A DNA stretch of 63,227 nt, counting the filler, from Kipferlia bialata (taxonomy: Eukaryota), in assembly GCA_003568945.1 (NCBI GenBank). It is 5 parts of 5 records of this genome, joined end to end, with 100 filler letters (N's around TTAATTAATTAA, not from the genome) between each part and the next. Parts side by side here need not be neighbours in the genome. Positions count along the whole stretch, not along the records: positions 1 to 13,980 come from BDIP01000872.1; 4 more parts are not named here. One strand, given 5' to 3'. The position numbers and the translations under genes were made by a program. Shown here piece by piece: positions 248 through 63,227 of this stretch. Under the pieces are notes generated by a model. It was not told the DNA's origin. It searched no databases and saw only the letters and a program-made list of their open reading frames with translations. Numbering within the stretch: position 1 is the first letter of the stretch; every line of letters begins with the position of its first letter.

Positions 248-3200
248 GTCCCCCTCTTTGATGACACTGTGTCCTTTGGCCGGTATGCCTCCTTCATCCA
301 GAGGAGCAAGGAGGCAGCTGCTGCAATGGCACCCACACAGGGGGCAAGAGTAGGTAGGACAGCTGTGTCTCGCTCTCACTCGCTCTCACTCTCTCTTTAG
401 ACACACCCATGTGGTCCAGAGTAGGTGTGACATCTCCACCTCTACCTACCAAGTTCTTTCCTAACTCCCAGCTCTATCACGTGACACACTCTCTCCACTG
501 TTATCCCTTACTCTAGGCCTCCCCCTGGACACCCTGTCTCCCTATGCCTCTGTCTCTGGCACAGTGGACACAGACACAGGTAACTTGGTATATATTTTTA
601 CAGATAGATAGAGAGTGTGTGTGAGAAAGTGAGAGAGAGTGATATGGCACAGTGGACACAGACACAGGTGGGTGCATGTATGCATATATGCATGTGTATA
701 AAATATATATACCCACTTGTGCCTCTATATGTATATATACAGAGAGACAGAAAGAGAGAGAGAGAGAGATGCCACAGATACAGGTGTTTATGTTTACAAT
801 CTAGTATTACGATGCCTCCCTACTGTGACTGACCCCCAGGCACGGGTCTTGGGTACATGGTCAGTCTGCTGGAGAGAGAGAGCGAGGCACAAGGTGGGGC
901 AGATGTATACCTATATGTATACTATGTGTATAGATCATGTACCCTCTGTGCCCAGACTCTAGTGACTCTGACCCCACCCACCCTATCTCTCTCTCTCTAT
1001 TTCTCTCTCTCCCTAACCTCAGACTCTGTTGACTCTGACCCCACCCATGCACATACCCATGGCATAGAGGAGACCCCCCTAGGGACTCTCCTCAGACACC
1101 ACGGCAGCACACTGGTGGAGGACCACTGGGTACCCTCAGGGCACCATGTGCAGGAGATATGCGACAGGGTCACCCACCTCAAGCTGGATGACACACACTC
1201 CAGGCAGAGTGGGAGACAGAGTATGGGTACACCTGGCCAGAGGGTGTCAAGGGGCAGGGTGAAGGGGAGGGGGGTGGCCTCACCTGGCAGTGGTATCATA
1301 CGGAGGGGGAGCAGGAACGATCTGACCGAGGGAGACAGAGAGAGAGAGAGTAGCTCCCCTAGGAACTCCAGGAGCAGCAGTGTGGTGGGGGGTGGGGTGG
1401 GGCTAGGCAGGGAGGGGCCCATGTCGCCCCTGACCTGTGTGGACCTGGCACCATATACCCACCTGGTCTCTCTCTCCCTCTCCGTGCCTGGGGGTCCCCC
1501 TCTCCTAGTGGGTATACAGCCCCTCAAGCAGACTCTGACATCAATAGCAGTAACAAACACACCAATAGGTACAGTACAGTGTGGATATGGATATACTGTT
1601 TGCTCTATGTCATCCGCCCATTTAACACCCGAGGTATTCCCTATGGTATCCCTCAGTATCAGTATCAGTATAGGTCCTATGTATTTACTTATATACATAC
1701 CCTGCCTGTCTGACCCCCAGGCCTCCCCTCCGGCATCCTCCTAGCCGACCTAGGTGATGGTGGTCTGGACTCTGACCTGGGGGATGACACATTTGGCCTA
1801 TCAAGTCAGGGGGCAGACCTATATACCCGGCTGATGCAGGTACTGATGTTTATATGTGTATGTATATGTATATCATTAGTGTTTATTATAATGCTCTACA
1901 CACGGCTGATGCAGGTATGTATAGGGTGTGTATATACAGATATTCATGTAGAGTTATAGTGTATATGGTAGTGAGGTATCTTATCCCAGGTCCCCTCTCT
2001 GTCTGCTGACGCTGACCCCAACCATACCCCCAGTGGCACAGGCACCCACACACCTCTGTCCGGGGTAGGTGCCCATAGTGGCACACCCACTACCAGAGGC
2101 ATCATGAGTGGTATGAGTGGTGATAGCCCCACCCCATCTGGCCTAGGGGTGCGTGGTGTGCTGTCCCCAGGTACCCATGCACTGGGCACATACGACCTGG
2201 TGGTGCATAGGTCGCCATACAGGTAGGGGACATATGTATATATATACACACACACACACACACACTCTCTCTCACTCTAGGTGGGAGGCCCTGACCTCTC
2301 TCTCCCTCACCAACTGTGGCATAGCCGCCATGGACCCCTCCCTCCTTCTGCTGCCCTGCCTCACCAACCTGGACCTGTCCTACAACGATATCAGGTATAC
2401 TCTGGTGTATATGCATTCGTATATATGTACTAATTCTCATTTGTATACAGTGTATATATTACGAGCTTTACCGCCACTCTATATATTGCTTCTGAATGAT
2501 TATTCATACAAAGAATGAGAGAATGAGTGTGTGTGTGTTTTGAACCTACCCAGTGTGTATTACGTAGCCTCACCCCCAGACGTGTTGCCTATCTGTTCAT
2601 GTCTCCCTGTCTCCACACTGTCAACCTGTCCTTCAACAGAATAGCCAGTCTGCAGGGGATAGGGGCAGAGGTCGGATCAGTGGCAGACCTTAACTTGAGG
2701 TATCCAAGTCTAAGTATATATAATTGTTAGTATTAGTATTTGGTGCATATCTTCATATATGAGTGTGTATACAAATATTCCTCACCCCTCAGGGGCAATG
2801 AGCTCCGCAGTCTGGGTGGTCTGTCTGGACTGGTGGGGCTGGAGAGACTGGACCTGTCTAAGAACATGCTGCCTAGGTATTGTATGTGATATATATACAT
2901 ATATATGTATACATATACTCAGATGGTAGTATGTATAACACTATATACTAGAGGCTGGATCTGTCCAAGAACATGCTGCCTAGGTTTCAATATTAATATA
3001 TGCATTTATGATTGATATATGCATTTGTATTCATATGTGTGTGTGTGGTAGTTTGTGGTATTTCATATAGTAGAGGCTGGACCTATCGAAGAACATGCTG
3101 CCTAGGTATATATCATATGTATTTGAATATGTGTACATACTATATATATATATGTATGGTAGTATGATATATACTAGAGTCTAGATCTATCTAAGAACAT

Positions 3201-6200
3201 GCTGCCCAGGTATATGATATATATGTATATATATTAGTATATGTATACTTAGATGGTAGTGTGTATTATATAATATACTAGAGACTGGACCTATCTGAGA
3301 ACATGCTGCCCAGGTATAGGGTTTGTATATGCATATACATGTACATACAGACTTCAAGAGACACATTAGTCTGGACCTGCCCAAGAATATATATATAACC
3401 CCCCTCACCCCAGGTTCCAGTCCATCCTGCCCCTGGCCAACCTATGTATATGTTAGTCTATATTATCTTCATATATACTATGTATACTGTCGATATAGTA
3501 AAGCGTATGTACCCTGACCCCAGGTTCCAGTCCATCCTGCCCCTGGCCAAGCTACCTGTGCTGTACAGTCTGTTGCTGGAGGATAACCCCATGTGCACCC
3601 TGCCCCAGTACAGGTATGTGTAGATGTATATATATACTATATCATAGATGAGAGATATTGATTGATATAGAGTTCTTTACTAGTATTAGTATACATTCTA
3701 TTCAACCCAATATGCACCCTGCCACAGTACAGGTGGGTATATATATATATATGTATGTATATATTGATATTGATATAGAGTATATATGGGTATATGTACA
3801 CTCTATTCAACCCAATGTGCACCCTGCCCCAGTACAGGTATGTACAGATAGATATATATATATGTATATATATATTGATATTGATATTGATATAGAGTTA
3901 TATACATATATGGGTATATGTACACTCTAGTCAACCCCATGTGCACCCTGCCCCAGTACAGGTATGTATCCATTGTATCATTATAGTATACTAACCATGT
4001 ACCCCGGTACAGATAGGGCACAGACACCTAGGTACACATCCACTCTTCACCCTCCTCACCCCTAGGGTCCAGACCCTTATTCTCCTCTCCACCCTGTTGC
4101 AGGACAGAGGGGTCGGGTTCTGCCTCGACGAACTAGCACCCAGTCAGGTATGTATAATAATATACCATATTATATATACAATAATATATATATAGATATA
4201 GAAAAATTGTATATGACTTGTCCGTACTCCGTCTCGATGAGCTAGTACCTAGTCAGGTATTGATCTACAACACACAATTTCATACTCATACTTCATTTAG
4301 TGCCATAGTTTATCACCCGTCAGCCATGTTTATAACTGGCACCCAGTCAGGTGTATATATACCCACTAATACTTTCCACAAAGAATTGAATTAGAGTGTA
4401 TCATCTTCGTATCTTACCTGTCAGGAAGAGCTGCTCAAGGTGCACCGTGTGCTTGATAGGGCAGAGGCACGGAGGAGAGAGGCAGCCGTAGTAAGTGCCG
4501 ATGCAAGGGTGACACATCTGCTGAGGGGTGGGAAGGAGAGGGGGGAGAGCATGGAGTCTGAGGAGGAGGAGGGGGAGGGGGAGGAGAGTGACATGTCAGA
4601 TGAGGGGTCCTGGGGAGAGGGGCCAGGACTGGTGGTGGAGGAGGCGTACACACACACCTCACCCACCCTACCCACACACCCTGAGGCTGCAGATGGTCTT
4701 CAGTCCCTACAGTCCCCAGGGGGAGAGGGAGAGAGAGAGGGAGACGAGTCCACCCTGGAGGGGGACGAGGCCTCTGTGTGGTGCATAGATGGCACTGATA
4801 ACGAGGTGTCACTCACTGATAGAGAGAGAGTGCTGTCACCCGGGGGTACTGGGGTGGGGTCGCCTGGCCTCACTCCCTCTAGGACTAGGGGGAGGGGTAG
4901 ACGGAGAGGCGCTAGGATACAGCGGTACGCACATGGGTAAACCCTTCCATGACGGGATCCACTTCCCCCCTCTCTCATCCTCTCTGACCCTCAGACATAT
5001 TGTGGACATCCCACCCCTCCAGTCTGTCCAATATATACATACATACATATATATACACAAGCAGTACATATTTCCTTCTGACCCATCAGACACATTGTGG
5101 ACATCCTCCCCCCCTCCAGTCTGTCTGAGCCATTGGAGAGGGCACAGGGCGAGGTGGAGACACTCTTGACTAAGCTGGAGGACGCCCTGTGGCTCAGGGA
5201 CTATTGCAGGTATGCCCTTAGAGTAGTGTAATAGTATGCTATTCATGTCCTTCTTATAGTAGCATAGTAGTATACCTATGTCTCACCCCCAGGGCTGGCA
5301 AGGCCCAGGCCAGGGATGGCCGCCATGCCTCGTGGACATCGGTGCATATGGAGGTGTGTCACTACTCTATATACTGTGCACTCTCTCTTAATGACACATC
5401 CCTCATCTCACTTTCAGGGTGCCCCCACGTGTGCCGACCTCAGCCACATCTATGAGAGACTGACAGCACTCATAGACGGGTACCCATACTCAGTACGGGC
5501 TAGTATCACAGGTGGGTGTATCTGTAGTATAGTCCCTACCAAGTACCCCCCCCCCCCGTGGATATGTATGTGTATTAGCGTACCTGCATACTCCCTCTCA
5601 CCCCAGAGCAGTACATGTCTAGACTGTCCTCTCTGTCTGAGGCAGTGTATGCTGCTGAGACCGGGACAGATAGGGATGGGAGGGAGGGAGAGACTCTTGG
5701 GGGGCAGACTCTGCCTGCCACAGACTCCTCTCACTCTCTCTCCACATCCACCTCCCCACCCCATGCACTTGAGGTGAGTTCTCTCTCCTTCCAGGCTGGG
5801 ACATCCCTAGGCAGAGAGAGAAACAGACACCTGCTGCATGTAGAGGAGTCGGACACGGAGAGGGAGAGGGAGACAGCCATAGCACTCCAGGCATCTGCCC
5901 TTCCAGGTACACTGATTACTGATTCTAATAATGATCCTGTACACTGATACATTACTGATTACTGATACTAACACTGTATACTAGTACTGACACTGATACC
6001 CAGGTGGTGCCTCTGCCAGCCTTGTGTCCCAGGCACCTACTATGAGGGTGTTCCTATTGGACCAGGAGGTGCAGGTGGGGGATGTCTTAGATAGTACACT
6101 ATATTAATACGTGTATATCTTCTTACCCCCCAGGCCCTTGCCGATGCTGTGTCCACCCCGATGGTCCAGGGTGACACGCTCAGGAGAATGGCACAGAGGC

Positions 6201-9200
6201 TCAACAGGTATAGGGGGGTATATATGTAAATATATATAGAGAGAGAGTATATATGTGTATGTCTAGAATGGGTTGTATATATACAACATGAGAATGGCAC
6301 AGAGGCTCAACAGGTATGGCAGTGTCATTAGTTTGGCATCAGTGTAATCATGCTAGTGTATACACTACTACTCTGTACTTATCATTCTACCTGACCTCCA
6401 GGAGCATGCCTGTCCCCCTGGCCCTCAAGCATATACAGGACGCAGTGGACAAGGCAATCAAGATCACAGGTAGGGGCCTCTCTAGTGTATGTGTCTCTGT
6501 ATACTATGCCCCTCATACCCCAGGCGAGACCCCCCCCACCTACCCCGAGTACGATGAGTACAGGTCTCTCTGGACACACACCTCTGGTAGTGCCACAGTC
6601 AGACAGTACCTAGAAGCTAGGCGGAAGAGAAGCCTCGCTGTGAAGCAGGTACATATATCTACACTATACCCCTCACTCTTATACTGTCCAACTTACCATA
6701 GGCCTCTCTAGCCGTGGCCCAGCGCCGCATTCAGTACATCCAGCTGAGGGAGAGGCACATCAGAGGGACGGTGAGGGAGAACGACCCACCATTGGGGGAG
6801 GGGTACTTTGTGCTGCGTGATCCTGTGGCAGTCCTAGTGAGGTGCCCACTATAATCCTGTCTTCCTATAGTTACAGTCTCATATATACGTTATATTACGC
6901 GATGCTCACGGGTAGGAGACTGTTCAAGTACAACAGCAAGGACAGGGGTCACAGGCAGAGGGAGGATGAGAGAAAGGTGGTGCCCCCCCTTGTCCTGCTG
7001 TCCTATGCGGCAGATGCAGTGGCCAGGGAGGTGAGGGGGGTGGTGACCAGAGACGACTGCCCCAGGACGGCCTATGACTCACGGGTCCAGACATGCAGAC
7101 TGGCCAGTCTCTACCAGGTAGGGAGTGTGTGTGTATGTATACTGTATAGGCGCCATCTGTTCGGGTGGGTGTGTGTGGTGGATAGGAGTTACGTGTGGGT
7201 TAGTGTGTAAGTGGTCATTAAGGTCTCTCTGACCCCCTAGGCCATGGAGGAGAAGGAGAGAGAGAAGAGGGAGGAGGAGGCGAGAGAGAGAGAGAGAGAG
7301 GAGAAGGCCCGCCACACCTCCACCCTCAACACGTCTGACCTCGACCTAGAGCATGACAGTGAGGACATAGACAGTCTGGAGGAGGCAGAGAGAGAGGCAG
7401 AGAGAGAGGCAGAGGCCCTGGCTGAGGAGTCTGAGACTGATAGACTGCCTGTCCTCGTATCCATGTACCCAGACTCTGACCCTGTGACTGGGGTACTCAC
7501 ACTGGGGGACGGGGTGCCTAGAAGGGCCACCCTCATATACGACAGACATAGTGACACCTTACTGGCCTTCCCCTCGGAGAGAAGGAGACACCAGCTGTAC
7601 GGGGGGCCCATACTACCTGTGGGGAGACCTGAGCCCATCAGGCAGTGGCCAATGCGTACGTGCACACAGTATCTATATACGTATATATATATATATATAC
7701 ATATATATATCCGTCACTAATGGATGTATACTTGTGTGTACATAACCCCCGCCTCCCACCCCAGGTGACCTAGTTGCCCCTCTGTGTGTCAGTGGTATAA
7801 TGGGACCTACCCTGACCCTGCTCTTCTGCAACGCTCGCAAGGTATAGTATACATGATACACTTCACATTACTATATATTTCCATTCACCCCAGGCCTCTG
7901 TGTCCGATGCCCACCCAGTTGTGCATGCCCTGAGGGCAGACCCCATATACCCTCTGCCCCTGGCCACACTGGGTATGGTCATGTATATATATAGTGTGTA
8001 TATATATATATATATAGATAGATGGATGGACACGCATGTATATATGTGTACCCTCTGCCCATGGCCACACTGGGTATGGACATGTGTATATATAGACATG
8101 CATGTATATATATATATCCGTATGTCCTCCCACCCACCCCCCTCACCCCCCAGACCGCCTTAGGTCCATGCAGTACCCAGACAGAGAGGGCAAGGGACTG
8201 CTCCCCCTAGCATGTGCTGACAGTATGGTGTCTGCTGAGGCGTCTCTTAGGGGTCTAGTCTACAGTGCCTGTGCCATCCAGTTTGAGGTGGACGGGGAGG
8301 GTGTCTGCAAGGGTCTGAACTCTCTCATGGGCGGGGTGATAGGGCCCTACATACTGAGGAGGGATAGGCTGGAGGCACGGCACAGGAGGAGTCACGGGGT
8401 GCAGACGGCACAGTGCTTCTGGACACTATGCATGGGGTGCTCTAGGTATATATGTGACTTCATATATATATAGTTATGCATTAGTATATGTGTATGGGCA
8501 CACTACCTCTTATCGCCAGGACCTTCCGCGCCACCCCCTCCGGCTTCTGCCCCTTCTGCCGGAGAGGATGCTATGCATGGGACATACGCACAGTGAGGGA
8601 GATGCCAGAGACAGGTGAGGAGACACCCATAGGGGGAAGTGCCTCTGTGATGGACAGGTCTCTCTCTCTCTCTCTCTCTCAGACAGAGAGGGAGGGGTCA
8701 GTGCTAGAGGCATCCACCGCCTCTGCCTCTGCCTCTCTCCGCTCCCCTGGTCCCTCTGCACCCCCTAGCCCCACTATGTCCCAGGTTGGCAAGGAGGTGC
8801 TAGACACAAAGAGCCCAGGGTACATCCTGAGGCCTCTGAGGGCTGGTGTGCTACTAGACAGGCCCCAGCTGAGTGAGAGGCTGGCCATATGTGGAGGGAT
8901 ATACGGTGAGGAGGCTGGCACTGCAACTGGTGACAATGAGGATGGTGCAGAGGGTGTAGACCACCTAGAGGGTATGTCTGACCCTGTCAACAGTGACTAC
9001 CAGAGTGGGTGTGAGTGGGCAGGGGGCATGGGGGTAGATGGGGCAGCACCTGGCATGGATGACATGGGAGTGGAGGTCAACGCAGAGGTGCCTCTGCCAT
9101 CAGTGCTGATGAGGAGGTCGGCATTCCTTCCCACAGACACAGACCCCATCACCAGTCCCTTGTATGCACAAGTGCTCAGGTAGGGTGATACTGGGTGTTT

Positions 9201-13980: not shown

Positions 13981-14080
13981 NNNNNNNNNNNNNNNNNNNN
14001 NNNNNNNNNNNNNNNNNNNNNNNNTTAATTAATTAANNNNNNNNNNNNNNNNNNNNNNNNNNNNNNNNNNNNNNNNNNNN
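13981..14080. other. Artificial contig spacer (N-TTAATTAATTAA-N)
   Basis: Six-frame stop linker flanked by Ns. Confidence 0.98.
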
Positions 14081-14628: not shown

Positions 14629-17600
14629 CTACTCTTCAGCTCCAATCTCCTCCTCCTCGACCTCAAGGGGTTCTTGGTCTGACTCGGTCTCAGCCTCAGT
14701 TGCTCCCGAGACACAGGCCAAGGCCTCGATCATCGTCCCTGAGTGGCAAATGCACATACCTAATTTCAGAAGAAGAAGAACAGTATTGAATGTATATATC
14801 ACATCAAACTTACCCTCCAGCATGTCGAGGTGGTCCTCGTTGGCAAGCTCAATATATTCATCAATGGGATAGTGAGCGAAGCTCTCGTTCACACTGAACC
14901 CAGGGATCGCAATTGATATGGCATTAGAGAGGTCAGTGAGAGAGAGGGTGTCTAGGTGCTCAAAGAGATGGTCCAGAAGACCCTCAGGGAGAGGCTTCAT
15001 GAGGAAGGCTGGGATAGGGGGAGGTACCAAGAGCTGTAGCAGCGCGTCCATGTGGCACAGACACACGGGTGCACACTCCACCTTGGCCAGAAGGTCCCTG
15101 AGGCAGTCAAACAGGGGATCAGAGGGTAGGTGCTCTGCCACGGTATCCGCCTCCACATTGACCGCTGGCCTCTGGTTCAGAGTGAAGCACACACGCAGCA
15201 AGGGGTTACGCAGATGGTCAAGGCGTACACCGCGTAACTCTGCCACTGCGTCCTGGAGCTGGTATATCTGCGTAGGCATCAGAGGTGTCTGGGGATTGTG
15301 TAAGCACCTCATGCTCACCCCACTGACACCAGAGTCCACAGGAAGAGGCCGTGTGGGAATGTCACCATGTGCTAGAACAAGTAAGGGGACACCCCTTGGC
15401 AGCAGCAGGCTGTGGAGCGAATACATCCGCTGGGTGTATGCCGCATCGGCCTCCTCTGCGGTAGGGTAGTCATTCCCTAGTCTGCTCTGCAATGCAGCCA
15501 CAAGGCCCAGGGACATGGACGTGTCTGTGACATGCACAGGTGTGTGCCACGCAGAGACGTTCCCGGCATTTGGATCGAGTAAGGCACTGAATGTGTTGAG
15601 GGCAACAACCAGCGCCTCCACATACTGTTCCACGAGGGAGGGATCAGATGCCCCAGCGTCTCTGGGCAGTACCATGGCACAGAGACAGTCATCAGAATCC
15701 ATGGTCTTCCAGACAAATGCCTGAGAGTTAGGTGTCGTACACCCACTATATTATGGCTATTGCAAGATCTATACCTCACACTGGAAGGACAGGTCTCCTG
15801 CCAGGTCTGGGACACTGTTCCAGGCTTCAGTGAAGCCTGTGTACTGGGAGCCAAGCCCAATGTCCTTGCACGTGTCACTCAGGTTGGCAGCCGGGTCGCA
15901 GTCGATGGCAACCGCGTAGAAGTCCTTCAGGAACGCTGTTATCACCTGTGTCAAAACAAGAACTGAAGGTGTTCACTACACACTATTATAACTCACCTGA
16001 GTAGCCTCCATGAGCTTGCAGAACCTGGTTGTTCCCTCCAGCAGCTCTATGGATGACACTGGGTCACTGTCCTGTCTCTGCGGCATACGTGGCATCTCAG
16101 GCTGCGAGAGTGGCAGAAGGGCCAGTCTGTACTGGTCAGGACTGGCCTCAGCGGCAGCTTCGACCTCAGTCTGGCTGTAAGACCTTCCAGTATGGCACCC
16201 TCCCACTTGGTTGGAGATGTGGGCTGTAAATGCCTCCAGGACATGGTTGGCAAAGTGCTGCATGTGTGCCAGACGGGGGGACGCGACACCAATATCCTTG
16301 GGTAAGTAAAATTGAACATCAAGATAGACGGGATACGACCATGACGTTGTAAACACATTACCCACCTGCTGCATAACGGCCATCACTCTGGCGTGGAAGG
16401 CAGCCTCGGGCCCTGCTCTTTGGGCCTGTGAAGGGAAGGATAGTGTCAGAGAGGAGGAGGCAAGTGCCTTGGACACCTTTACCATGGTGATAAGGGCGGC
16501 GTCCCTGCTGACCTGTGGGTAACGCATTGACTCTTTGCACTATTATATACAGATATATATATATCACCGCACCTCTAGAGCCTTGGCAAACAGAGCCAGT
16601 TCCTCTTCCAGACGAGTAGCCCAGAGACGCCTGATCTCGGCATCCTGAGTCTGCGCCTGGACTAGGGAAGCATGGGTGGCAGCAATACGGGCAACCCCAG
16701 TACTGAGCCTTGAGAGACTGCGCAGCTTGGGTAAGACACATGGTAACGATTACCACATACACTGTAGTATGGGAGCCTACCTCCATATAGTCCTTTTGCG
16801 TCTGCCAGCCACGCAGGTCTGCCCCTGTGTTTACAGCCCTGTTTCCAGCCACATAGCTAACGATCAGTGAGGTACAACAATGAATATGGATGAGAGTGGC
16901 GAGGAGAACAGACATACTTGTGATGGGTGCCTCCAATTGGCCGCCCACAGCTGGGGCACTTAGAGATCTCCATGGGGCGTCCACAGTTGGTCAGCACATA
17001 GATTTCTCCGCATACACAGCTGGGTAAGTGTGGAGATGTATGTGGCAGTCTGACTTGTAAAGACCAAAGACACTACTATTTTCAGTGTAAGACTCGTACC
17101 TGTTAGTGCTAGTACCAAGCTTCCTGAGGGTGTCCATCAGGTCGTCTCTCATGCCCATGACGTACTGGTTGGGTGTCAGCACACACTGGAGTCCGACCTG
17201 TCTCAGGAGAGCATCCAGCACTGCCCCATGGGTAGGTCCCTCAAAGAGGGCAGTGTCAATTCCGAGACTGTCTGTCATTCCCTCGACTGTCAGGGGTCCA
17301 AGGCTGGATGGCAGGAGATCAGAGGCACCAAAACGAACAGGGTGTGTCAGGAAGTCTTCGTCGACAGGACTCAGATCAAACCAGTCTCCACAAGCATGCT
17401 TCATAGCTGCGCAGTACTCTCTATCGTTGCCAAAGGATGAGTTGGCAACCTGGCGCATCAGGTAGTTCCGAAGAGGTAACACATGGTGGTCGTTGATCTT
17501 CACAATGGAAAGAGCCTCGGGAGAGGGGACCTGGCCAGTCATGATGTCCTGAGGTTAGCATCAGCTACGCGGCACTGACATACATGTTTGTCGCATACGC

Positions 17601-20600
17601 CTTGATCAATAAATCAGGTAGCCTAATCTTCTGTCTTCTATACCTGTCTCACAACCCTCCTTAGCTGCATCTCTCCAACTGCTAGGGCACAGAACTGACA
17701 CTGGTTCTTGGAGAACCATCTGAAGGCGGCAACAAGCTCCTCACTCGCCAGACCATACCTTTTGTGAGGGTGACGAAATCGTAGCAATCGCAGCAGAGAG
17801 AGAACGTATGATAGAAGATTCTGGAATGTGGCTCAAATCTCCCTACCTGCATCCAGCTAGGACATTGACGAGAGAGCAAATGACAAAGGGGCTGTCCAGC
17901 AGCAGTCCCTCTGAGAGAGCAAGCCTTTCCTACGTGTAAGTGTGTGATATGCGTTTGTATACACGTTTCACAACAGTCTACCTACCTTCACAGCATCCCA
18001 GGGGACATCCACATGGTTGACGGTCAGGGCAAATAACTCACACCAGTCTCTTGCCCTACCCGTACTAACCATGTGCTTCAAGAGCTCGTGCAAGGCAGCC
18101 CACATAGTTTCCAGACCCATACCCTGTACCATGTCAGCCAGGAGGACACACAGAGGCCCTGGGAGAGCATTCACCACATCGAACATGTTGTGGGACATAA
18201 CAGCCCGTGCTGCACGGATTGCGGGGCCGCAGACACTGCCATCCGCAACGTGCTCGCTTGCATGGGATACTGCCTGGTACACCCTATAGGCGTGACGTAC
18301 CGGACAGCGTGAGGGCAAGGCACATACGAGCTCCGACACGAAGTCTGCGTCAAGGTCGAGGAGTCTCTCAATACCGACTGCCTTGGCAAATGAGGCGGCT
18401 CGGTCTGCAAATGTGTCTCCACTGAGGGCTGCGAGGTCTATGTCTGTGCCAGTGTACTTGGCCATGGAGATGGCAAGGTAGAGACAACGGGTCTCCAGGT
18501 AGTGGGCAAACCCAACCATCAAGCTATTGGCCCCATCGGCAGGGCGTATGGGAGAGTCGCACCTCAGCACGGCCTCCAGCCTGGGCACCAAGGTGTCGAC
18601 ACTAGAGGCAGTGACAAGTGGAGCGTCTGGGTTACCACGGAGCTTGTACTTTCCAGAGTGCTCTACGGTCTCTCTCAGAATGGCACGTAACACCACGTGG
18701 GAGTCCTGCAGCCCATCAGGGAGGTCCCTCAACAACTCTGGAGTGAGGTGCTTAGCAAAGGGCACGTTGGCTACCGTGACAGAAGCAGCACACGAGGTGT
18801 CCAGACGGGCATCGAGGTCCACAAGCTCTGTGACGCCGTTAAGGTACGTGGTCCATTCTCTAAGACCGCACTTGGGAATGAGGTGGGCAAAGAACAGAAT
18901 GATGTCTGACTCGGCGGGAAGATGCGGCACTCTCGCACATAGCTGACCGGCAAGAAGCGGAAGGATGCGACCAAAGAACCACATCCACCCGTCCCTAGGG
19001 GATCCACTGCGGAACAGAACTCTAAAGAGCTCGGGGAGGGCCTAGGGTGAATTTCTATAAATACATAGCACAACCACTCTTCAGTGTGTTAACTCAAAAC
19101 TCTAAATAACAGATTACCCACCTGGGGGTTGCTTAGAGACCTGTGGACTACTGGAAGCATCATGAGTCTCTTGAACACAGCTGAGGCAACCGCATCAACT
19201 GCAGCCTGAGTAGCAGTCCCAGAGACGTTCTCTACTGACCAGCGCACTGCTAAGTTCCGCCGGACCTCTGTCTTCAGGGTGTACATCATGTGGCTCTTGA
19301 GGGTGTCGATTGACTGCTGAGTACATGAGAAGAGGTCCCTAAAGCTGATGCTTCTGCTGGTAGTGTCTGACGGGTCTAGGGATGGGAGAGACCATGTGGG
19401 ATCCGACAGAATGGTCTCCTCAACGGACCAGTACTTGGAAGTCTCTGTTCCAGAGTTCTTAGAACCACCCCTAGCATCACGCGCAACACACTCAGCATGT
19501 ACAGTCCTATGGTATGGCAAGTATCGGCGGCGCTGGGCGGGTGTGAGGCACTTGACCAGGTCCCGACGAAGGGACAGTGGGGCAAAGACACTAAGACACT
19601 TGTACTTGGGACCAAGTGAGGGGAAGACTTCAATGAAGCCAAGTCGGGAACTGAGAATGAGAATTTGATAATCTAAGTTCAATGATATGGTTGACCTATA
19701 CGGAGACATACTCACCGGAGGTCTTCTGAGGTGTTGCCATGGAGGCTGATACGGTGGACACCCTTGAGAGTCCTCTTAAGACTTCTGCGGAGTTCAGAAT
19801 CAGTGGGCTCTCTGTCCATCCGTTGCTTCAACTTAGAGACATCTGCCATGGTGTACACAGTCTCTATGCCAGCGTCGCTACTGACATGAGGCAGGAACGG
19901 ATCCCGAGTGAAGCATGCATTGATGTAGTGGCACTTCTTGGTACGAGCATCCTCCCTGAGGCTCCTCTCCTTGGCTACCCAGTCATCACAGCTCACATCC
20001 CATGCTGCACCCAGACGCTGCCAGGCCGCGGTGTCAGTCTCCCCCTTTGTGTTGACGAATGTCGGAAGCGGGTCAAGGTCCCGGTTGATGTGGTAGACAG
20101 ACATGCGGGACAGAGTGGAGTCTGGGATGTGGGTAAGGGCAGAGCGGTGCACAATGAACAGCAGCCGCATTTGCGAGTTGACGCTAATGGTTTCCTGATA
20201 GGACCCATGGGCTAGAAGAGCACTCCCACTGCCACTAGTCTGGTAGGACATGTTCAGAACCTGTCGTCAGACTCGTAAGATAGCTGAAGGATATATCAGC
20301 GCGGACATTTGCATACCTGCTGCAGTGCTATGAGGAGATCCCCAGGGTTGTGGAGAATCAGACTGTTGGCCGACAGTGCTGTGTTCCGAACTCTGCCATC
20401 AGACACACCTGAATGCTGGTAGAGTGACTTCACATCTATCTCATATACATCTGTATACCTGTGAAGACTGGCAAATGCCGATGTGCGGCTGCACTGCCAC
20501 GTGTGGTCCTTACATCGATACTTCTTCTCGCCAATCGCCATGAAGGCTGCCACTATATTCTGAGTCAGGCGATGTCAAGTTACTATGTAACTTCATATGA

Positions 20601-23600
20601 AATCAGTGGTAACGATTGACTAACCTTGTGTGCAACAGCAACTGCCTCCTCAGAGTCTACCACGAAGAGACAGTGGCGAAGCGGCTCGGGACTGAGAGTA
20701 AGGGAGCGGGCTATTGAAGAACGTAAGTCGTCTTGACATGAGATGACTGTAGATACATGTGCCATATAGTATTCAAGTACCATGTATAATCTTGGACAAT
20801 AATAGTAGATCAAACCTGGAGAGCGTCATGTATTTGCGGAGCGGCATCGTGTCTTCCTTGTTGACGACCTGAAGGAACCGGTCAGGCGTCTTGGCATCGC
20901 GAGACCCCAAGCAAGTGTACACAACGCGTCTGTAGAGGTTGTCAGTGTCGTTGGATGGGTGGGCCTTGAGGAACCGGGCAACAGCGACAATGTGCCTGCA
21001 GTGAGATATATCTATGGACACAATCTAAGGAGTGACTGACCTTGGAGAGAGACGGAGGGAACTGGCCACGTCCTTGTATCGGTCCAATACTGACTTGAAG
21101 ACCTCCTCTGTGGCAGCTGGGACGTCCCCGAGGTGCATCCTGCCTATGGCCTCGAGGGCAGGGCCAGAGAGGGGCTCGTATATGGCCTTCATGAACCTGC
21201 CTCCAAGGGCATGGTCGTAGGGCAGAGACCCGTCCAGTAGACGGTTGGTAGAGCAAATGACGGTGAAGTTGCGGCGCCCTGTGGATGTCTTGGGGTCCTC
21301 CTGCTTGTCAAGGAGGTGATGCAGTGCCTTGCGGGCGTTCTGCGTCATCAGAGACATCTCCTCAATCACAATGATGGTGGACCCAGTGCCAGGGGTGGTG
21401 TCGTCCTCCACCATGTGGGCCAGACGGTCGATAACGGTCACAGAGTCCCCCTGAGTGAACTGTAGTGTCCTTACGTCTGGATACAACAGGAGCTGCTTTG
21501 GAACAGCAAAGTGCTCAGTCTGGTTCCTCCCCCGTCTCTTCTCGTCTTTGCTCTGCTCAGTATCTCTGAAGGGAAGCATGTGCACAAAGCTTGATATGCA
21601 CATGGTCTTAGAGACACCTGAGTCAGAAATGTGGGAGTCAGTAATGTCAGGAAGAGCAATGCGCTGCTTCGTTTATATCACATACCTGCTCCTCCGACTA
21701 GAAGAAGTGACCTGTTGCATGCCACCGAAATGGCCAGGAGCAGGAAGTTCTGCTTGACGTATGGGGTGGCGACCATCTTGTCCTCCTTGACAAAGCGAGT
21801 CTGAGGGTGAGGCCAGAGAAATTGAGTAATAAGTATATAGACATGGTACTAACCTTGACATCGTCTAGGAGAGACTCGAATGCCTCTCTGCAAGTATCCG
21901 AGTCCCCCTCAGCATCTAGGTGACTCTCTGCCAGGGAGAGGAACCCCTCCAGAGTAAGCTGTGCGCCAAACACAGCAAACGTGGCGATGAGAACGACAAG
22001 CTTATTGTCGACAGTGCCTTGGCGGATATACTTCAGCAGCTTGACAAACTCTCGGTGCTCTAGCAGTTCTGCCAAAGACCGCAGGTCTCTGAGCGAGGGC
22101 TCAGCAAGCCGTTCGTCCTTGATTGTCCGCATCACAGCAGTGCAGAAGGTGACAACGCTGTCCGTCTCACTGCTACTCCAGGTGCTGGTGGCTCTTCTGA
22201 TGAAGTCATGGCGTTGGACATCAGTGGGAGGCCGTACATTGAAGGCGCACCTTGCCACAGCAGGATGAATGCGGTACACGTGGTAACGGTGGGAGTCACT
22301 ATCAGATGAGGAGGGAGACCCAGGGTTGCATGTGCCAATGAAGCGCAGGTTTGGAGGGAGAGGAGTCCATCTACCCAGGACCTCGTCCTTGTACATGCCA
22401 TCGACAAAGAGGGCCTTGAGGGAGTCGCCGATGTCTGAGGCATTGAGCTCGTCCAGCATCACAACGTAGTTCTTGCCACGGTTGGTGGTGCTCTTGGCTT
22501 CCCTAACGTATTCACAAACGCTGTTCTTCCAGAGCTGTTTCGTTACAAATCCAGCCGTGAGGATAGTCACGTTGAACGTAACATCTAGGTGACGGATCAT
22601 CTTGAAGTAGTGTCTGAGCAGGTAGGTCTTGCTGGATCCAGTGGCACCGCACAGTATGAGAGGGGGAGGGGAAGCTCTCTTGCAGCTGCTGGTCAGAGCT
22701 GTGGCGTCACCTTCTAGCCAAGCCGTCATGTTCTGGTGCACATACTCTAGAGTCTCCTGAACGTCAGCAGCCGAAAAGAAGAGTAGACACTCCATTAGTA
22801 GTATATATGACACAGTACTGAATCTACCTGACACTGCTCTGTATATACAAAGCCCTCTGTTCCACGGGTCTCCACTGGAGTGAGGTCCACGTTATGGTCC
22901 TCACAGAGCCTCTTGTTCCAGAGAGCGTCGGTGTCACATGGGGAGGCCGGAGGGTCATCTTCACCATCAGTCGGCTTAGGAGTAGCCCACAACCCACCGT
23001 TGAAAGTGATGCAACGGTCTGGGGGAGCCAGACACTCTGCAACAGACCAAGGAGATTCATCGAAGTTGGGCACAACAATGTCAAGAGTGGGAGTGAGTAG
23101 AGTCTGGGGTGAGAGACATCTGCATACAGTCACACCTTAATGTCTTAGACAATTAACGTACATGCATGCTCTCCATCACTAAGCCGCAGACACCAGTCAG
23201 AGCAGCAGACAAGAGCTCTACGAAGAGAGAGCTCTGACGCACAGCAGACGCAATGGGGTCAGTCCCAGTGAAGAAAGTATCAGTGACCCAGGTGGACTGA
23301 GGTTAGGATCAGGACTAGTACTGAGACAACTACCGACAAAGTGCTATCGTGCCTCCTTTGGGCGGGCCATTTCACATGGCAGCACAGAGCTGAGGAACAC
23401 ATCGGGTAGTCTGGATGACTCGTCACAGTTGTACACCCTGAAGGACTTATCCTGCTCGGGCCAGCAGTAGTCACCTTCACACTTGTGCACATACACCTTC
23501 CTGTTGGACACAGTCCTGGAATAAGTGTGACATACTGCGGGATGAACATAATGGAACTTGTCTTACAATAGCTTGTATATACCTCAGCTTCGGTGGAACA

Positions 23601-56195: not shown

Positions 56196-56295
56196 NNNNN
56201 NNNNNNNNNNNNNNNNNNNNNNNNNNNNNNNNNNNNNNNTTAATTAATTAANNNNNNNNNNNNNNNNNNNNNNNNNNNNNNNNNNNNNNNNNNNN
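56196..56295. other. Artificial contig spacer
   Basis: N-TTAATTAATTAA-N. Confidence 0.98.
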
Positions 56296-60271: not shown

Positions 60272-63147
60272 ATGTCTGACGTTCCTACACTTCGCATTAA
60301 CGGGGTGGAGATCCGGGACATCCCTGATGCCCCGGTAGACTCCACAACAGGCTCGGGACTCTCTAGGGTCTCCGAGGCCGCCCTTTCCCGTCTCTCGGCC
60401 ACCGGCACTCTGCCCAAGGCCGAGATGAACGCCCTTAAGAGGTATGTGACGCGTATATGTGCCTATACTACTATACAGCGATATCTATTGTGTTGGGGAG
60501 AGCCACATGATGTCCGTGTGTCAACTGAGGAACACCGATATGTCTTTCCATTTTCGACCATATACTTTTGACAATATGTTCTCAGCGGTGAACTCTGATA
60601 TGGTTAGATGATGTCTCTCCATGTATATGCCGCATATTCATAGGGTAGAATTCGTGATTCCCGACCGTATACGGTGAATATGTATTGTACTTGGAGCCCT
60701 CACTGTCTACTTCCCACCTCTCGCTTCTTCTCACCATAGCGATCTTCTAGGATCCCGCAAGTCTGCAGCCGATGCCGAGCTTGTGACTGCCACGACTGAA
60801 GTTAGGCAGATCATGACCAAGGTGGGTAGTTGTGTGTATGCCCCCCCCCCCCTCTCTTCTCTCCCCCCCTTGTTCATATTCCTGCTACCTATTCCTTTCA
60901 CCTCCTCACACCCCCAGGTCCGTGCCCGCAAGACCATCGAGCTGACCAGGATGACCCAGGAGGTATATTAATAATTAATACTGATACTGTACTATACTGA
61001 TACTGTACTATACTGGTACTGATGCTGATACTGATACTGATACTAGGCCGAGAGGAGGATGTCCCTGCACATCGAGGGGGAGGTCAAGCCCAAGGTGCTG
61101 CCCCTCCCGGACATCGGTACGCGGCACTGCCCTCTCTCTCTATACTTATGGTATATTCTCTCGTCTAATTATGTGTATATGGATACTTCAACCTCTATCT
61201 GACCCCTTAGAGGAGGAGGAGGCCGTTGCTGAGCTCCTGGAGGTCATGGCACACCACAAGAGTGTGGACCAGATGGTCGAGGTATATATATGTATATTTG
61301 TGTCTGTGCTGCCGTATGTCCCTCTCCTCACCGTCAGGAGCACGACACCAACCTCGCCGTTGGTCTCACCTCCAAGGAGAGGGCCGCCAGGCTCGAGAGG
61401 TGGGTGTTTTGTACATATAGGGTGTTCTCTCTGTGATTGTACTCTTGGATGTTCTTCTAATTATTTTACTATAATACTGTGACTCTCACCCACCCCAGAC
61501 ACGGTCTCAACAGACTGACCCCCCCTGAGGAGGAGAGCAAGATCATCCAGTTCCTCAAGTGCCTCGTGGGTACGTATTAGTCTTCTCTCTCTCTCTATAA
61601 ATGTATGTGTATAATCTATAGTTGTATTATCTGTTATGCTAACTCTCAGGCATCTTCTCCCTGCTGCTGTGGGTGCATTCTCTCTCTCTATTCTATCACA
61701 TTTATGTTTTCTCATNNGCTGCTGTGGGTGCATTCTCTCTCTCTATTCTATCACATTTATGTTTTCTCATTTTCTAACTCTTAGGCATCTTCTCGCTGCT
61801 GCTGTGGGCCGGTGCCTTCCTGGCCATCGGTGCCTATGTCATCCCCATCATGACAAACTCTGACGTCGAGCCTGACGTCAACAACCTCTATGTTGGCCTC
61901 GTCCTTGTGTTCGTGGTGGTGCTCACCGGCATCGTCACATACGTCCAGGTAGTTACAATACACCTCCCCCAATGCCCCCCTCCCCCCCCTCCCCAGTATA
62001 TATTCCTAATGAAGTCCTCTATACATATCTGTTAGGGTATATGTATATATATATATATCTAACCCCCCAGGAGGCCAAGTCCTCTGCTATCATGAAGTCC
62101 TTTGAGTCCATGGTCCCATCCAAGTGCACCATCCTCGTCGACGGACAGGTACGTGCATATAGTATATATACCCTGGGTGGCCTCACATCACCAAGACCTT
62201 TGTCATCACCCGCCACTCTGTCTCTCTCTTTGTCTAAATATTCCTCCCCTCTCACCCCAGGTCACCGAGGTCGATGTCATCACCGTCGTCCCAGGCGATG
62301 TCTGCGTCCTCTCTGCTGGAGACAAGGCACCTGCCGACCTCCGTCTCGTCGAGTGCTCCAACCTCACAGTCGACCAGGTATATATTTTATATACGCAATG
62401 AATTTGTTACATATTAGTGTTTTTATTTGTCCTTACCCCCAGTCTGCCTTCGATGGCGAGTCTGTCCCCGTCTCCAGGAACACTGCTATCTCAGGCGCCG
62501 ATGACTTCCTCTCCGCTAGGTATATAGCTATGTGTTGATTATAATGCAAATGCATATCCCTCATGTTGAACGCTTGTTCATTATTAGTGCTGACCATTAG
62601 GAACATTGCCCTCTACCCCTGCCCCGTCATGACTGGATCCGGAAAGGTAAGCTTTCTACAACATCCCCCTTGCTCCCTCTCTCCCCCCCTCTATTTATAC
62701 ATATTCCTCTCACCCCCAGGGCATTGCCTTCTCCACCGGTGACCACTCCGCCGTTGCCCAGATTGCCCAGGCCACACAGGGCGAGGAGAGAGACACCCCC
62801 ATCCAGAGGTATATATACTACACACACTCTCTCTACGTATATATATAGTGTATTTAGATAGAATAGTGTGTAACCCCAGGGAGATTGAGCACTTTGTCAA
62901 GATCATCTCCGTCTTTGCCATCACCCTGGGCGTTGTCTTCTTCACCATCTCCCTCTTCGACAGCAGCACAGTCTTCCTCGAGTCCGTCCTCTTCGCCATC
63001 GGTGGGTACTCTCTCTCTCCCTCCATTAGTATATATATATATATAGTGTGTATAGTATATACCTCACCCCCAGGTATCATTGTTGCCAATGTCCCCGAGG
63101 GTCTGCTCACCACTGTCACAGTCTCCATGTCCCTGGCCGCCAAGAGG
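60272..63147 (+). CDS. P2C-type Na+/K+ (H+/K+)-ATPase alpha subunit, 3'-partial
   Basis: [131 protein letters not shown], the diagnostic P2C M1-M4 signature. Confidence 0.93.
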
Positions 63148-63178
63148 TACTCTCTCTCTCTCTCTCTCTCTCTCTGTA

Positions 63179-63213
<35 letters not shown>

Positions 63214-63227
63214 CCCCCCCCCCCCCC

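What the first reader, a model, noticed from the sequence alone, without database searches (positions are those of the whole stretch)
2845..4355. Three consecutive LRR exons each trail a train of synonymous donor-side echoes
Seen: exon end AGA CTG GAC CTG TCT AAG AAC ATG CTG CCT AG|gt has four echoes, and 12 of the 14 differences counted by hand are synonymous (some are shared between copies). The next exon end (NPMCTLPQYR, ~3585-3613) has three echoes differing only at third positions. The next (LDELAPSQ, ~4124-4147) has echoes with GAC>GAT, GAA>GAG, CCC>CCT and CTA>CTG. Different echoes carry different synonymous combinations, suggesting several source haplotypes rather than two.
Basis: seen in the sequence. 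Interest (0 to 1): 0.8.

Follow-up and report, generated by a model that had tools for sequence, protein, structure and literature searches.

The report
Exon-edge "mirage" repeats, silently diverged
Three introns of this leucine-rich-repeat gene hold head-to-tail copies of their own exon edge plus splice site, a repeat type known from lancelets as "mirages"; the sampled messenger RNA skips the copies, and their almost purely silent differences are likely kept that way by sequence exchange with the real exon.

Summary
The exon end at 2843-2876 has four full echoes and one partial echo. The exon end at 3585-3613 has three, and the one at 4119-4147 has two.

The echoes are real tandem DNA. Single DNA contigs at single-copy depth span the first and third trains. 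One spliced RNA contig removes all echoes as intron.

This is not special to three exons. A filtered survey of the 63-kb window found 33 donor-side and 27 acceptor-side trains (87 echoes), all strictly local. [quoted passage not shown] The human F7 intron 7 repeat is similar. This scan has noted mirages before on other DNA (323 notes, at least 48 genomes), but none on this genome.

The codon bias is real across the window: 111 of 158 codon changes are synonymous, against 24% expected. It holds among echoes alone (40 of 54 changes at position 3). Echoes lack in-frame acceptors, so they are not cassette exons.

My best reading, which is inferred, is that echoes keep exchanging sequence with the selected exon edge. 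Whether several source haplotypes contributed cannot be tested in one genome.

The parts
2793..2876 (+). Real exon (LRR unit). Its last 34 nt (2843-2876) are the master copy of train A; the donor GT is at 2877-2878.
   Evidence: The RNA contig piece ends here and continues at 3524 (table 8). Pfam LRR_4 E=0.0019, below the curated cut-off.
2950..2985 (+). Echo E1 of train A (34-nt exon-end copy plus GT).
   Evidence: D4, 89%. Three differences from the exon, all synonymous.
3072..3107 (+). Echo E2 of train A.
   Evidence: D4, 92%. Three synonymous differences.
3176..3211 (+). Echo E3 of train A.
   Evidence: D4, 87%. Four synonymous differences and one R>S.
3280..3315 (+). Echo E4 of train A.
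   Evidence: D4, 92%. Two synonymous differences and one K>E.
3368..3390 (+). Partial, degraded echo E5 of train A. Its 3' part is lost.
   Evidence: D9, 83%.
3402..3444 (+). Acceptor-side echo: pyrimidine tract, AG (3412-3413) and the first 31 nt of the next exon.
   Evidence: D12, 95% to 3512-3554. The single difference in the exon part (AAG>AAC) is at a third codon position but changes K>N. The RNA contig uses the acceptor at 3522-3523, not this one.
3524..3613 (+). Real exon. Its last 29 nt (3585-3613) are the master of train B; the donor GT is at 3614.
   Evidence: RNA contig, joint 3613>4066 (table 5).
3704..3734 (+). Echo B1.
   Evidence: D5. Three third-position differences, one of them M>I.
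3809..3839 (+). Echo B2.
   Evidence: D5. One third-position difference.
3933..3963 (+). Echo B3. It is identical to the master over the last 29 nt, but it shares a 9-nt deletion and the left flank with B1 and B2, so it is a mosaic.
   Evidence: (3585-3619 = 3933-3967, 100%).
4066..4147 (+). Real exon. Its last 29 nt (4119-4147) are the master of train C; the donor GT is at 4148.
   Evidence: RNA contig, joint 4147>4425 (table 5).
4228..4258 (+). Echo C1.
   Evidence: D16, 82%. Carries GAC>GAT, GAA>GAG and CCC>CCT, plus A>V and C>R.
4334..4352 (+). Short echo C2 (17 nt plus GT).
   Evidence: D10, 88%. Carries CTA>CTG.

Best explanation
The three trains are real head-to-tail copies of an exon's last 17-34 bases plus its GT donor and the start of the intron (splice-junction minisatellites, "mirages"), lying in introns that the one RNA contig laid here removes whole, and their nearly silent differences are likely kept so because the copies go on exchanging sequence with the real, selected exon edge.

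Shown:
- Tandem units of about 100-120 nt straddle exon-intron borders.
- The outermost junctions (first donor, last acceptor) are the ones in the RNA.
- The copies are local only.
- The same thing happens at donors and acceptors of genes on both strands across the window.
- Differences between copies fall mostly on third codon positions, also among echoes alone.

Inferred:
1. Short tandem duplications arise anywhere. Those that span a junction leave a half-exon, meaning a donor without an acceptor or the reverse.
2. The splicing machinery would ignore a half-exon because it lacks the partner site needed to define an exon.
3. Gene conversion or unequal exchange, within the array and possibly between alleles, keeps moving short patches between the echoes and the real junction. 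A replacement change in an echo is removed when it reaches the real exon, while silent changes pass freely.
4. The flanks, which have no selected partner, decay into (TA)n and (GA)n.
For: Physical reality: DNA contigs span trains A and C at single-copy depth with 0 differences.

Splicing: the RNA contig joins 2876>3524 (by contiguous record coordinates, table 8), and 3613>4066 and 4147>4425 (table 5), with GT..AG ends.

Window-wide pattern:
- 33 donor-side trains (51 echoes) and 27 acceptor-side trains (36 echoes) pass the filters.
- Variable columns by codon position 1/2/3 are 13/9/61 for donors and 13/14/30 for acceptors.
- A frame-free test gives 105 of 140, against a null mean of 85.5, sd 3.3 and maximum 99 in 5000 shuffles.
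- 111 of 158 codon changes are synonymous, against 24% expected.

Echoes alone, master left out: changes by position are 9/5/40. P=1.1e-9 against 1/3 and 2.7e-4 against 1/2.

Signs of exchange:
- Echo B3 is a mosaic.
- In the train at 30828, a 27-nt patch with 6 silent differences lies between flanks that are 97% and 96% identical.
- Three of 5 informative site pairs show all four combinations.
- In train A the echoes share a rearranged left flank that the master lacks. Yet the master is nearer to each echo (3, 3, 5, 3 differences) than the echoes are to each other (3-6).

Third-position differences look like differences between working alleles. GC3 is 0.66 in masters and 0.67 in echoes, and W>S is 53 against S>W 43. 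First- and second-position differences run GC>AT (30 against 14), as in decay. Fisher P=0.011.

The published description of amphioxus mirages reports concerted evolution within clusters and undisturbed splicing (PMC3087553, section 16 passages).
Against: - No conversion event is observed directly, and there are no population or sister-species data. Two metagenome scans found no relatives.
- The shared tract is only about 30 nt, which is a poor substrate for recombination.
- Zero stop codons among 158 codon changes also fits direct selection on the echoes. About 2 stops were expected among 47 replacements.
- The near-saturated silent divergence in the 30828 patch needs either a very diverse population or a long history.
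- The RNA evidence is one contig from the same sample as the DNA. Contigs drop rare isoforms.
- Outside 2230-4560, master status and reading frames are inferred from position, open frame and codon usage, not from RNA.
Confidence: 0.6

Rival explanations
1. The echoes are themselves translated, as in-frame cassette micro-exons or alternative exon ends, and are held by direct purifying selection on the peptide.
For: The replacement/silent ratio is about 0.13 overall and 0.09 on the donor side (from the counts). Changes among echoes alone are codon-aware. There are no stops among 158 codon changes. The train A echoes could be 30-nt in-frame exons after AGAG.
Against: - AG sites at the left edge of donor echoes show no preference for an in-frame length: 21/25/24 by length mod 3. 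At least one such AG occurs in 19, 19 and 19 of 51 echoes for the three classes, and 17 of 51 echoes have none.
- Real acceptors are C-rich, whereas echoes are preceded by TA- or GA-rich DNA with in-frame stops right at the edge.
- The RNA contig skips all echoes.
- In the train at 47545, read in the frame that I judged correct by eye rather than the one the codon-usage score picked, both echoes carry AGA>TGA.
- The habit affects unrelated genes alike, which argues against gene-specific function.
Confidence: 0.12
2. Units were imported from several diverged alleles. Inter-allelic minisatellite exchange copies the other allele's first unit, which is its real exon edge, into the array, so each echo is a recent snapshot of a different working allele.
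For: The same codon-aware pattern and the stationary third-position composition apply. Different silent combinations occur per echo. Polar inter-allelic transfer is known at human minisatellites (recalled, not read here).
Against: - Echoes of trains A and B share derived left flanks and a deletion that no working allele could carry, so they multiplied as echoes.
- Third-position divergence averages 13% (122 of 935) and approaches saturation in one patch. That is high for alleles of one species.
- No second haplotype is seen in the DNA run: there are no alternative letters over the trains (table 3).
Confidence: 0.15
3. Plain neutral decay. Each echo is a one-off copy that decays freely, and only the real exon is under selection, so the silent bias comes from the exon's branch alone.
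For: First- and second-position changes are GC>AT biased, as decay predicts. The flanks have decayed to microsatellite.
Against: This model allows at most about half of the differences at third positions. Observed figures are 61 of 83 variable donor columns (P=1.1e-5 against 1/2) and 40 of 54 changes among echoes alone (P=2.7e-4). Echo GC3 has not drifted towards the intron's roughly 0.2-0.3 GC.
Confidence: 0.08
4. Assembly artefact: divergent haplotypes or reads stacked in tandem.
For: The window has scaffold gaps, one of them inside a train (30601-30623, flanked by a 32-nt exact duplicate). The amphioxus draft mis-assembled one mirage (PMC3087553).
Against: Independent k-mer contigs span trains A and C at full depth with 0 differences. 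Each echo is preceded by intron-like DNA rather than by the rest of the exon.
Confidence: 0.02

Closest known systems
Amphioxus "mirages" (Adh3, troponin C, globins BflGb6 and BflGb9, PGBD5). I read passages of PMC3087553 section 16 and PMC3902484. The original Canestro et al. 2002 paper is not held.
   Same: Minisatellite-like tandem duplication of an intron-exon boundary. Either the 5' or the 3' boundary can be copied. Units are tens to about 160 bp. Many units keep AG or GT. Regular splicing is undisturbed. There are signs of concerted evolution.
   Different: In this window the repeats are pervasive: 60 filtered trains in 63 kb, on genes of both strands. The copies are older and imperfect. 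A codon-aware, silent pattern of divergence is measured here; the passages I read do not report such a pattern. The organism here is not identified.
Human F7 intron 7 37-bp VNTR, whose first unit spans the exon 7-intron border (PMC1557585; abstract only).
   Same: Tandem pseudo 5' splice sites lie downstream of the real one, and the most upstream site is used.
   Different: It is a single locus with near-identical short units. No acceptor-side arrays and no codon pattern are described in the abstract.
Intron gain by tandem duplication of an AGGT-containing exon segment (Rogers model, as cited in PMC3087553; Drosophila cases in PMC2891723, abstract only).
   Same: Tandem duplication creates extra splice sites from exon sequence.
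   Different: Here the introns already existed. The acceptor echo includes the pyrimidine tract (D12) and the donor echoes include the intron start. The duplications lengthen introns; they do not create them.
Tandem exon duplication and mutually exclusive exon clusters.
   Same: Local tandem copies of coding sequence with their own splice site, conserved at the peptide level.
   Different: The echoes are half-exons: they lack the partner splice site and show no in-frame length preference. They are absent from the RNA contig.

Membership tests
Mirage (splice-junction) minisatellite | Head-to-tail local copies | tested here: met
   TRF periods of 104 and 111. Spacings of 104-124. 0 of 60 masters has a distant copy in the window.
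Mirage (splice-junction) minisatellite | The repeat unit spans an exon-intron boundary, at the 5' or 3' side | tested here: met
   The first unit of trains A, B and C ends at RNA-supported donors. The acceptor echo matches the RNA-supported acceptor region. Window-wide there are 33 donor and 27 acceptor trains.
Mirage (splice-junction) minisatellite | Copies keep GT or AG | tested here: met
   59 of 65 downstream matches keep GT. The other 6 all belong to one wrongly anchored train; the trains themselves had been found with a GT requirement. Signal strength is equal in masters and echoes: 4.82 against 4.78, and 0.75 against 0.76.
Mirage (splice-junction) minisatellite | Regular splicing is not disturbed | tested here: met
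   One RNA contig joins the authentic sites across all four arrays in 2230-4560. Contigs cannot exclude rare isoforms.
Mirage (splice-junction) minisatellite | Length instability between haplotypes or individuals | not testable with these tools
   Only one sample is available. No relatives were found in the metagenome scans.
Mirage (splice-junction) minisatellite | Concerted evolution within clusters | tested here: inconclusive
   Mosaic echo B3, patchy identity, and 3 of 5 four-combination site pairs. Recurrent mutation is not excluded.
Cassette or mutually exclusive exon array | Each copy is bounded by an acceptor and a donor, with in-frame length | tested here: not met
   AG sites at the left edge number 21/25/24 by length mod 3. 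17 of 51 echoes have none.
Cassette or mutually exclusive exon array | Copies appear in mRNA | tested here: inconclusive
   The single RNA contig joins across them. Raw reads are not available.
Introner or transposon-derived intron sequence | Dispersed copies at unrelated sites | tested here: not met
   0 of 60 masters has a copy more than 1 kb away in the window. The whole genome is not held.

The most novel reading that the evidence does not exclude
Protein-level selection reaches into introns. The decoy half-exons and the real exon edge form one exchanging pool, a standing library of silent variants for the exon. Alternatively, ribosomes read the decoys in rare isoforms, so that thousands of "junk" junction copies are kept peptide-true over long times.
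Probability: 0.15. Interest if true: 0.7.

Novelty: new member of a known kind. Interest (0 to 1): 0.4.

Why it matters
- It shows one way introns grow. The three echo-bearing introns are 647, 452 and 277 nt, against 93 and 185 nt for the two neighbours without echoes.
- It offers dozens of natural tests of splice-site choice, because decoys are as strong as the real sites.
- Such arrays mislead gene predictors and assemblers.
- The silent pattern of divergence, if it holds in population data, would be a clean case of selection on a coding sequence shaping its non-coding copies through exchange.

Tried and rejected
- No whole genome is held for this window, so all counts are for the window only.
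- Run search: no RNA holder is listed. X2 is "RNA?" by guess. I treat it as RNA only because its contig shows GT..AG joints.
- No RNA contig lies on the echoes at 97% likeness or more, and no DNA contig lies on 3790-3867 and 3166-3243 at that threshold. These are blanks, not evidence.
- The many joints and loose ends near 1350, 1653, 9720 and 10680 are contigs meeting at microsatellites, not a mobile element.
- Protein search with the 171-aa exon against longer proteins gave no hit.
- The Atlas search gave only AAA-family look-alikes and no useful taxon.
- Metagenome scans with a degenerate pattern for the train B peptide and with a 373-aa exon found no relatives.
- Rfam gave no match in the window.
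- The first-pass survey mixed strands, because a C-rich acceptor read backwards looks like a GTGAGG donor. I replaced it with the strand-mapped survey.
- Aligned identities of AT-rich flanks are inflated by low complexity. I use them only for the 30828 train, where the alignment is unambiguous.
- Recursive splicing was considered and set aside from reading. Only one acceptor echo starts with GT, and donor echoes do not regenerate a site.
- Repeat-targeted mutation and CpG decay were considered and set aside by inspection, without a formal test. The changes are not CpG-bound, and they include silent first-position Leu changes.
- Literature searches found no description of codon-aware divergence in such repeats.
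Full report
**What is there**

The region is an intron-rich gene on the + strand. Its GC-rich exons lie among AT-rich, microsatellite-laden introns. Single exons give sub-threshold LRR matches (LRR_4 E=5.5e-05 and 0.0019), so "LRR exons" is reasonable.

The repeat finder confirms three donor-side trains:
- Train A: 38-nt copies at 2843, 2950, 3072, 3176 and 3280 (87-92% identical, spacing 107, 122, 104, 104), plus a partial sixth copy at 3368-3390.
- Train B: copies at 3585, 3704, 3809 and 3933 (spacing 119, 105, 124).
- Train C: 4119-4147, echoed at 4228 and 4334.

TRF sees the same arrays with periods of 104 and 111. Read in frame, train A shows 14 differences, of which 12 are synonymous.

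**Are the echoes real, and are they used?**

Two coded runs of one sample hold the stretch. One DNA contig of 1188 nt, depth 488.5, covers 2282-3436 with no differences. Its pieces are contiguous in record coordinates. It therefore spans the exon end, E1-E5 and the acceptor echo. Another contig (669 nt, depth 433.6) covers 3938-4560, which includes B3 and all of train C. Neighbouring contigs have depths of 434-491. The DNA run may be the source of the assembly, so it is a second assembler rather than a second sample.

One 2113-nt RNA contig is spliced 2394>2580, 2699>2793, 2876>3524, 3613>4066 and 4147>4425, with GT..AG ends. Four of these joints appear in table 5. The joint 2876>3524 follows from contiguous record coordinates in table 8. 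All echoes are therefore intronic in this transcript. The first donor and the last acceptor are the ones used. Further along, an RNA piece starts within 3 nt of the last copy of the acceptor pair 10075/10161.

**It is a habit of the window, not of three exons**

TRF lists 17 arrays of period 50 or more. Self-comparison gives 177 local, non-simple repeat pairs within 900 nt.

A first survey mixed strands, because the C-rich acceptor motif read backwards mimics a GTGAGG donor. I therefore mapped gene strand from splice motifs and kept only families on the mapped strand.
- 33 of 53 donor clusters and 27 of 50 acceptor clusters passed a splice-score filter. The rest were dropped.
- Train B was entered by hand in its full form.
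- The train at 47545 fell out of the set.

The surviving trains hold 51 and 36 echoes. Neighbour spacing has quartiles of 105/118/142 for donors and 95/110/131 for acceptors. Identity is 0.9 or more over roughly the 20-25 exon bases next to the splice site. It falls to background by about 45 nt on the exon side and to 0.5 or less within about 5-10 nt on the intron side. Echo flanks are AT- or GA-rich where the master has exon. None of the 60 masters has a copy elsewhere in the window. Outside 2230-4560 the masters and frames are inferred, not RNA-supported. At least one "train" (7973/8074) lies wholly inside an RNA-defined intron.

**The codon bias is general**

Frames were chosen from the master's open frame and codon usage alone, without reference to the mismatches.
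- Variable columns fall on codon positions 1/2/3 as 13/9/61 at donors and 13/14/30 at acceptors.
- A frame-free test gives 105 of 140, against a null of 85.5 with sd 3.3.
- The binomial P is 8.8e-14 for donors and 0.002 for acceptors against 1/3.
- Codon changes are 82 silent and 23 replacement at donors, 29 and 24 at acceptors, with no stops. Random expectation is 24% silent.
- With the master left out, changes among echoes alone are 9/5/40.
- One train (30828, minus strand) keeps the peptide VVLGETNGE through near-saturated silent change, including Leu CTA/TTG/TTA.

**What this excludes**

- Free decay of one-off copies. With selection only on the real exon, at most about half of the differences can be at third positions. 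This is rejected at P=1.1e-5 for donors and P=2.7e-4 for echoes alone.
- Cassette exons. AG sites at the left edge show no in-frame preference (21/25/24). 17 of 51 echoes have none. In-frame stops abut the conserved zone. Read in what I judge the correct frame, the two echoes of the 47545 train share a nonsense change.
- Assembly artefact, by the spanning contigs.

**What fits best**

- Third-position differences behave like differences between working alleles. GC3 is 0.66 in masters and 0.67 in echoes, although the surrounding intron is about 0.2-0.3 GC, and W>S is 53 against S>W 43.
- First- and second-position differences run GC>AT (30 against 14), as decay would. Fisher P=0.011.
- There are mosaics. 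B3 equals the master next to the donor, but it shares a 9-nt deletion and the left flank with B1 and B2. In the 30828 train, a 27-nt patch with six silent differences sits between nearly identical flanks.
- Three of five informative site pairs show all four combinations.
- In train A the echoes share a rearranged left flank, yet the master is not an outgroup within the conserved zone.

I therefore infer ongoing exchange between the echoes and the selected junction, by gene conversion or unequal exchange and possibly between alleles. Replacement variants would then be purged when they reach the real exon. From recalled theory of multigene families under conversion, silent divergence among n exchanging copies can reach about n times allelic diversity, so this needs a diverse, large population. 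That step is inference.

That echoes are ignored because they are half-exons without a partner site is also inference. Their signals are as strong as the real ones.

**Comparison with the known**

[quoted passage not shown] They occur at either boundary, many keep AG or GT, splicing is undisturbed, length is unstable, and clusters evolve in concert (PMC3087553, passages; PMC3902484, passage). The human F7 intron 7 VNTR is a single-locus analogue (PMC1557585, abstract).

Four of the six defining features are met here. One cannot be tested and one is inconclusive.

This scan holds 323 earlier mirage notes in at least 48 genomes, including urchin, annelid, abalone and clam. None is on this genome. 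In the passages read and in searches, I found no report of codon-aware divergence of the copies. Supplements of PMC3087553 with unit alignments were not opened and may bear on this.

**Verdict**

It is a member of a known kind of repeat, unusually dense here, with a measured silent-site pattern whose cause is inferred rather than shown.

Noticed in passing
window 13981-14080, 28056-28155, 42131-42230, 56196-56295: Four identical N patterns (44 N, 12 bases, 44 N) recur at steps of 14075, 14075 and 14065 bases. Spacing this regular looks like masking or a scaffolding artefact, not biology.
   Followed up: no
window 30569-30655: A 23-N gap inside the four-copy train at 30430-30828 is flanked by an exact 32-nt duplicate. 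The unit count of this array is therefore uncertain.
   Followed up: partly
window 14629-22891, minus strand: A giant gene with unusually long exons (228-397 aa) and an AAA_5 domain (E=5.9e-05). It has few introns, and no train passed the filters between 10.2 and 28.4 kb. Echo density seems to follow intron density.
   Followed up: partly
window 7948-8117: A two-copy repeat with donor-like ends (7973, 8074) lies wholly inside an intron defined by RNA pieces 7424-7655 and 8153-8443. Either its master is lost or it marks an unsampled exon.
   Followed up: no
window 3368-3445: The degraded fifth donor echo runs almost directly into the acceptor echo, like a collapsed miniature of exon end, intron and exon start.
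   Followed up: no
window 62096-63225, plus strand: Exons that read like a P-type ATPase. E1-E2_ATPase is weak, E=0.061. The motif resemblance to Na/K-ATPase is recalled, not tested.
   Followed up: no
window 31090-31371, minus strand: A weak CwfJ_C_1 match (E=0.056) in the gene whose exons carry many of the trains between 30 and 41 kb. This is an ordinary housekeeping-type gene, not a repetitive protein.
   Followed up: no
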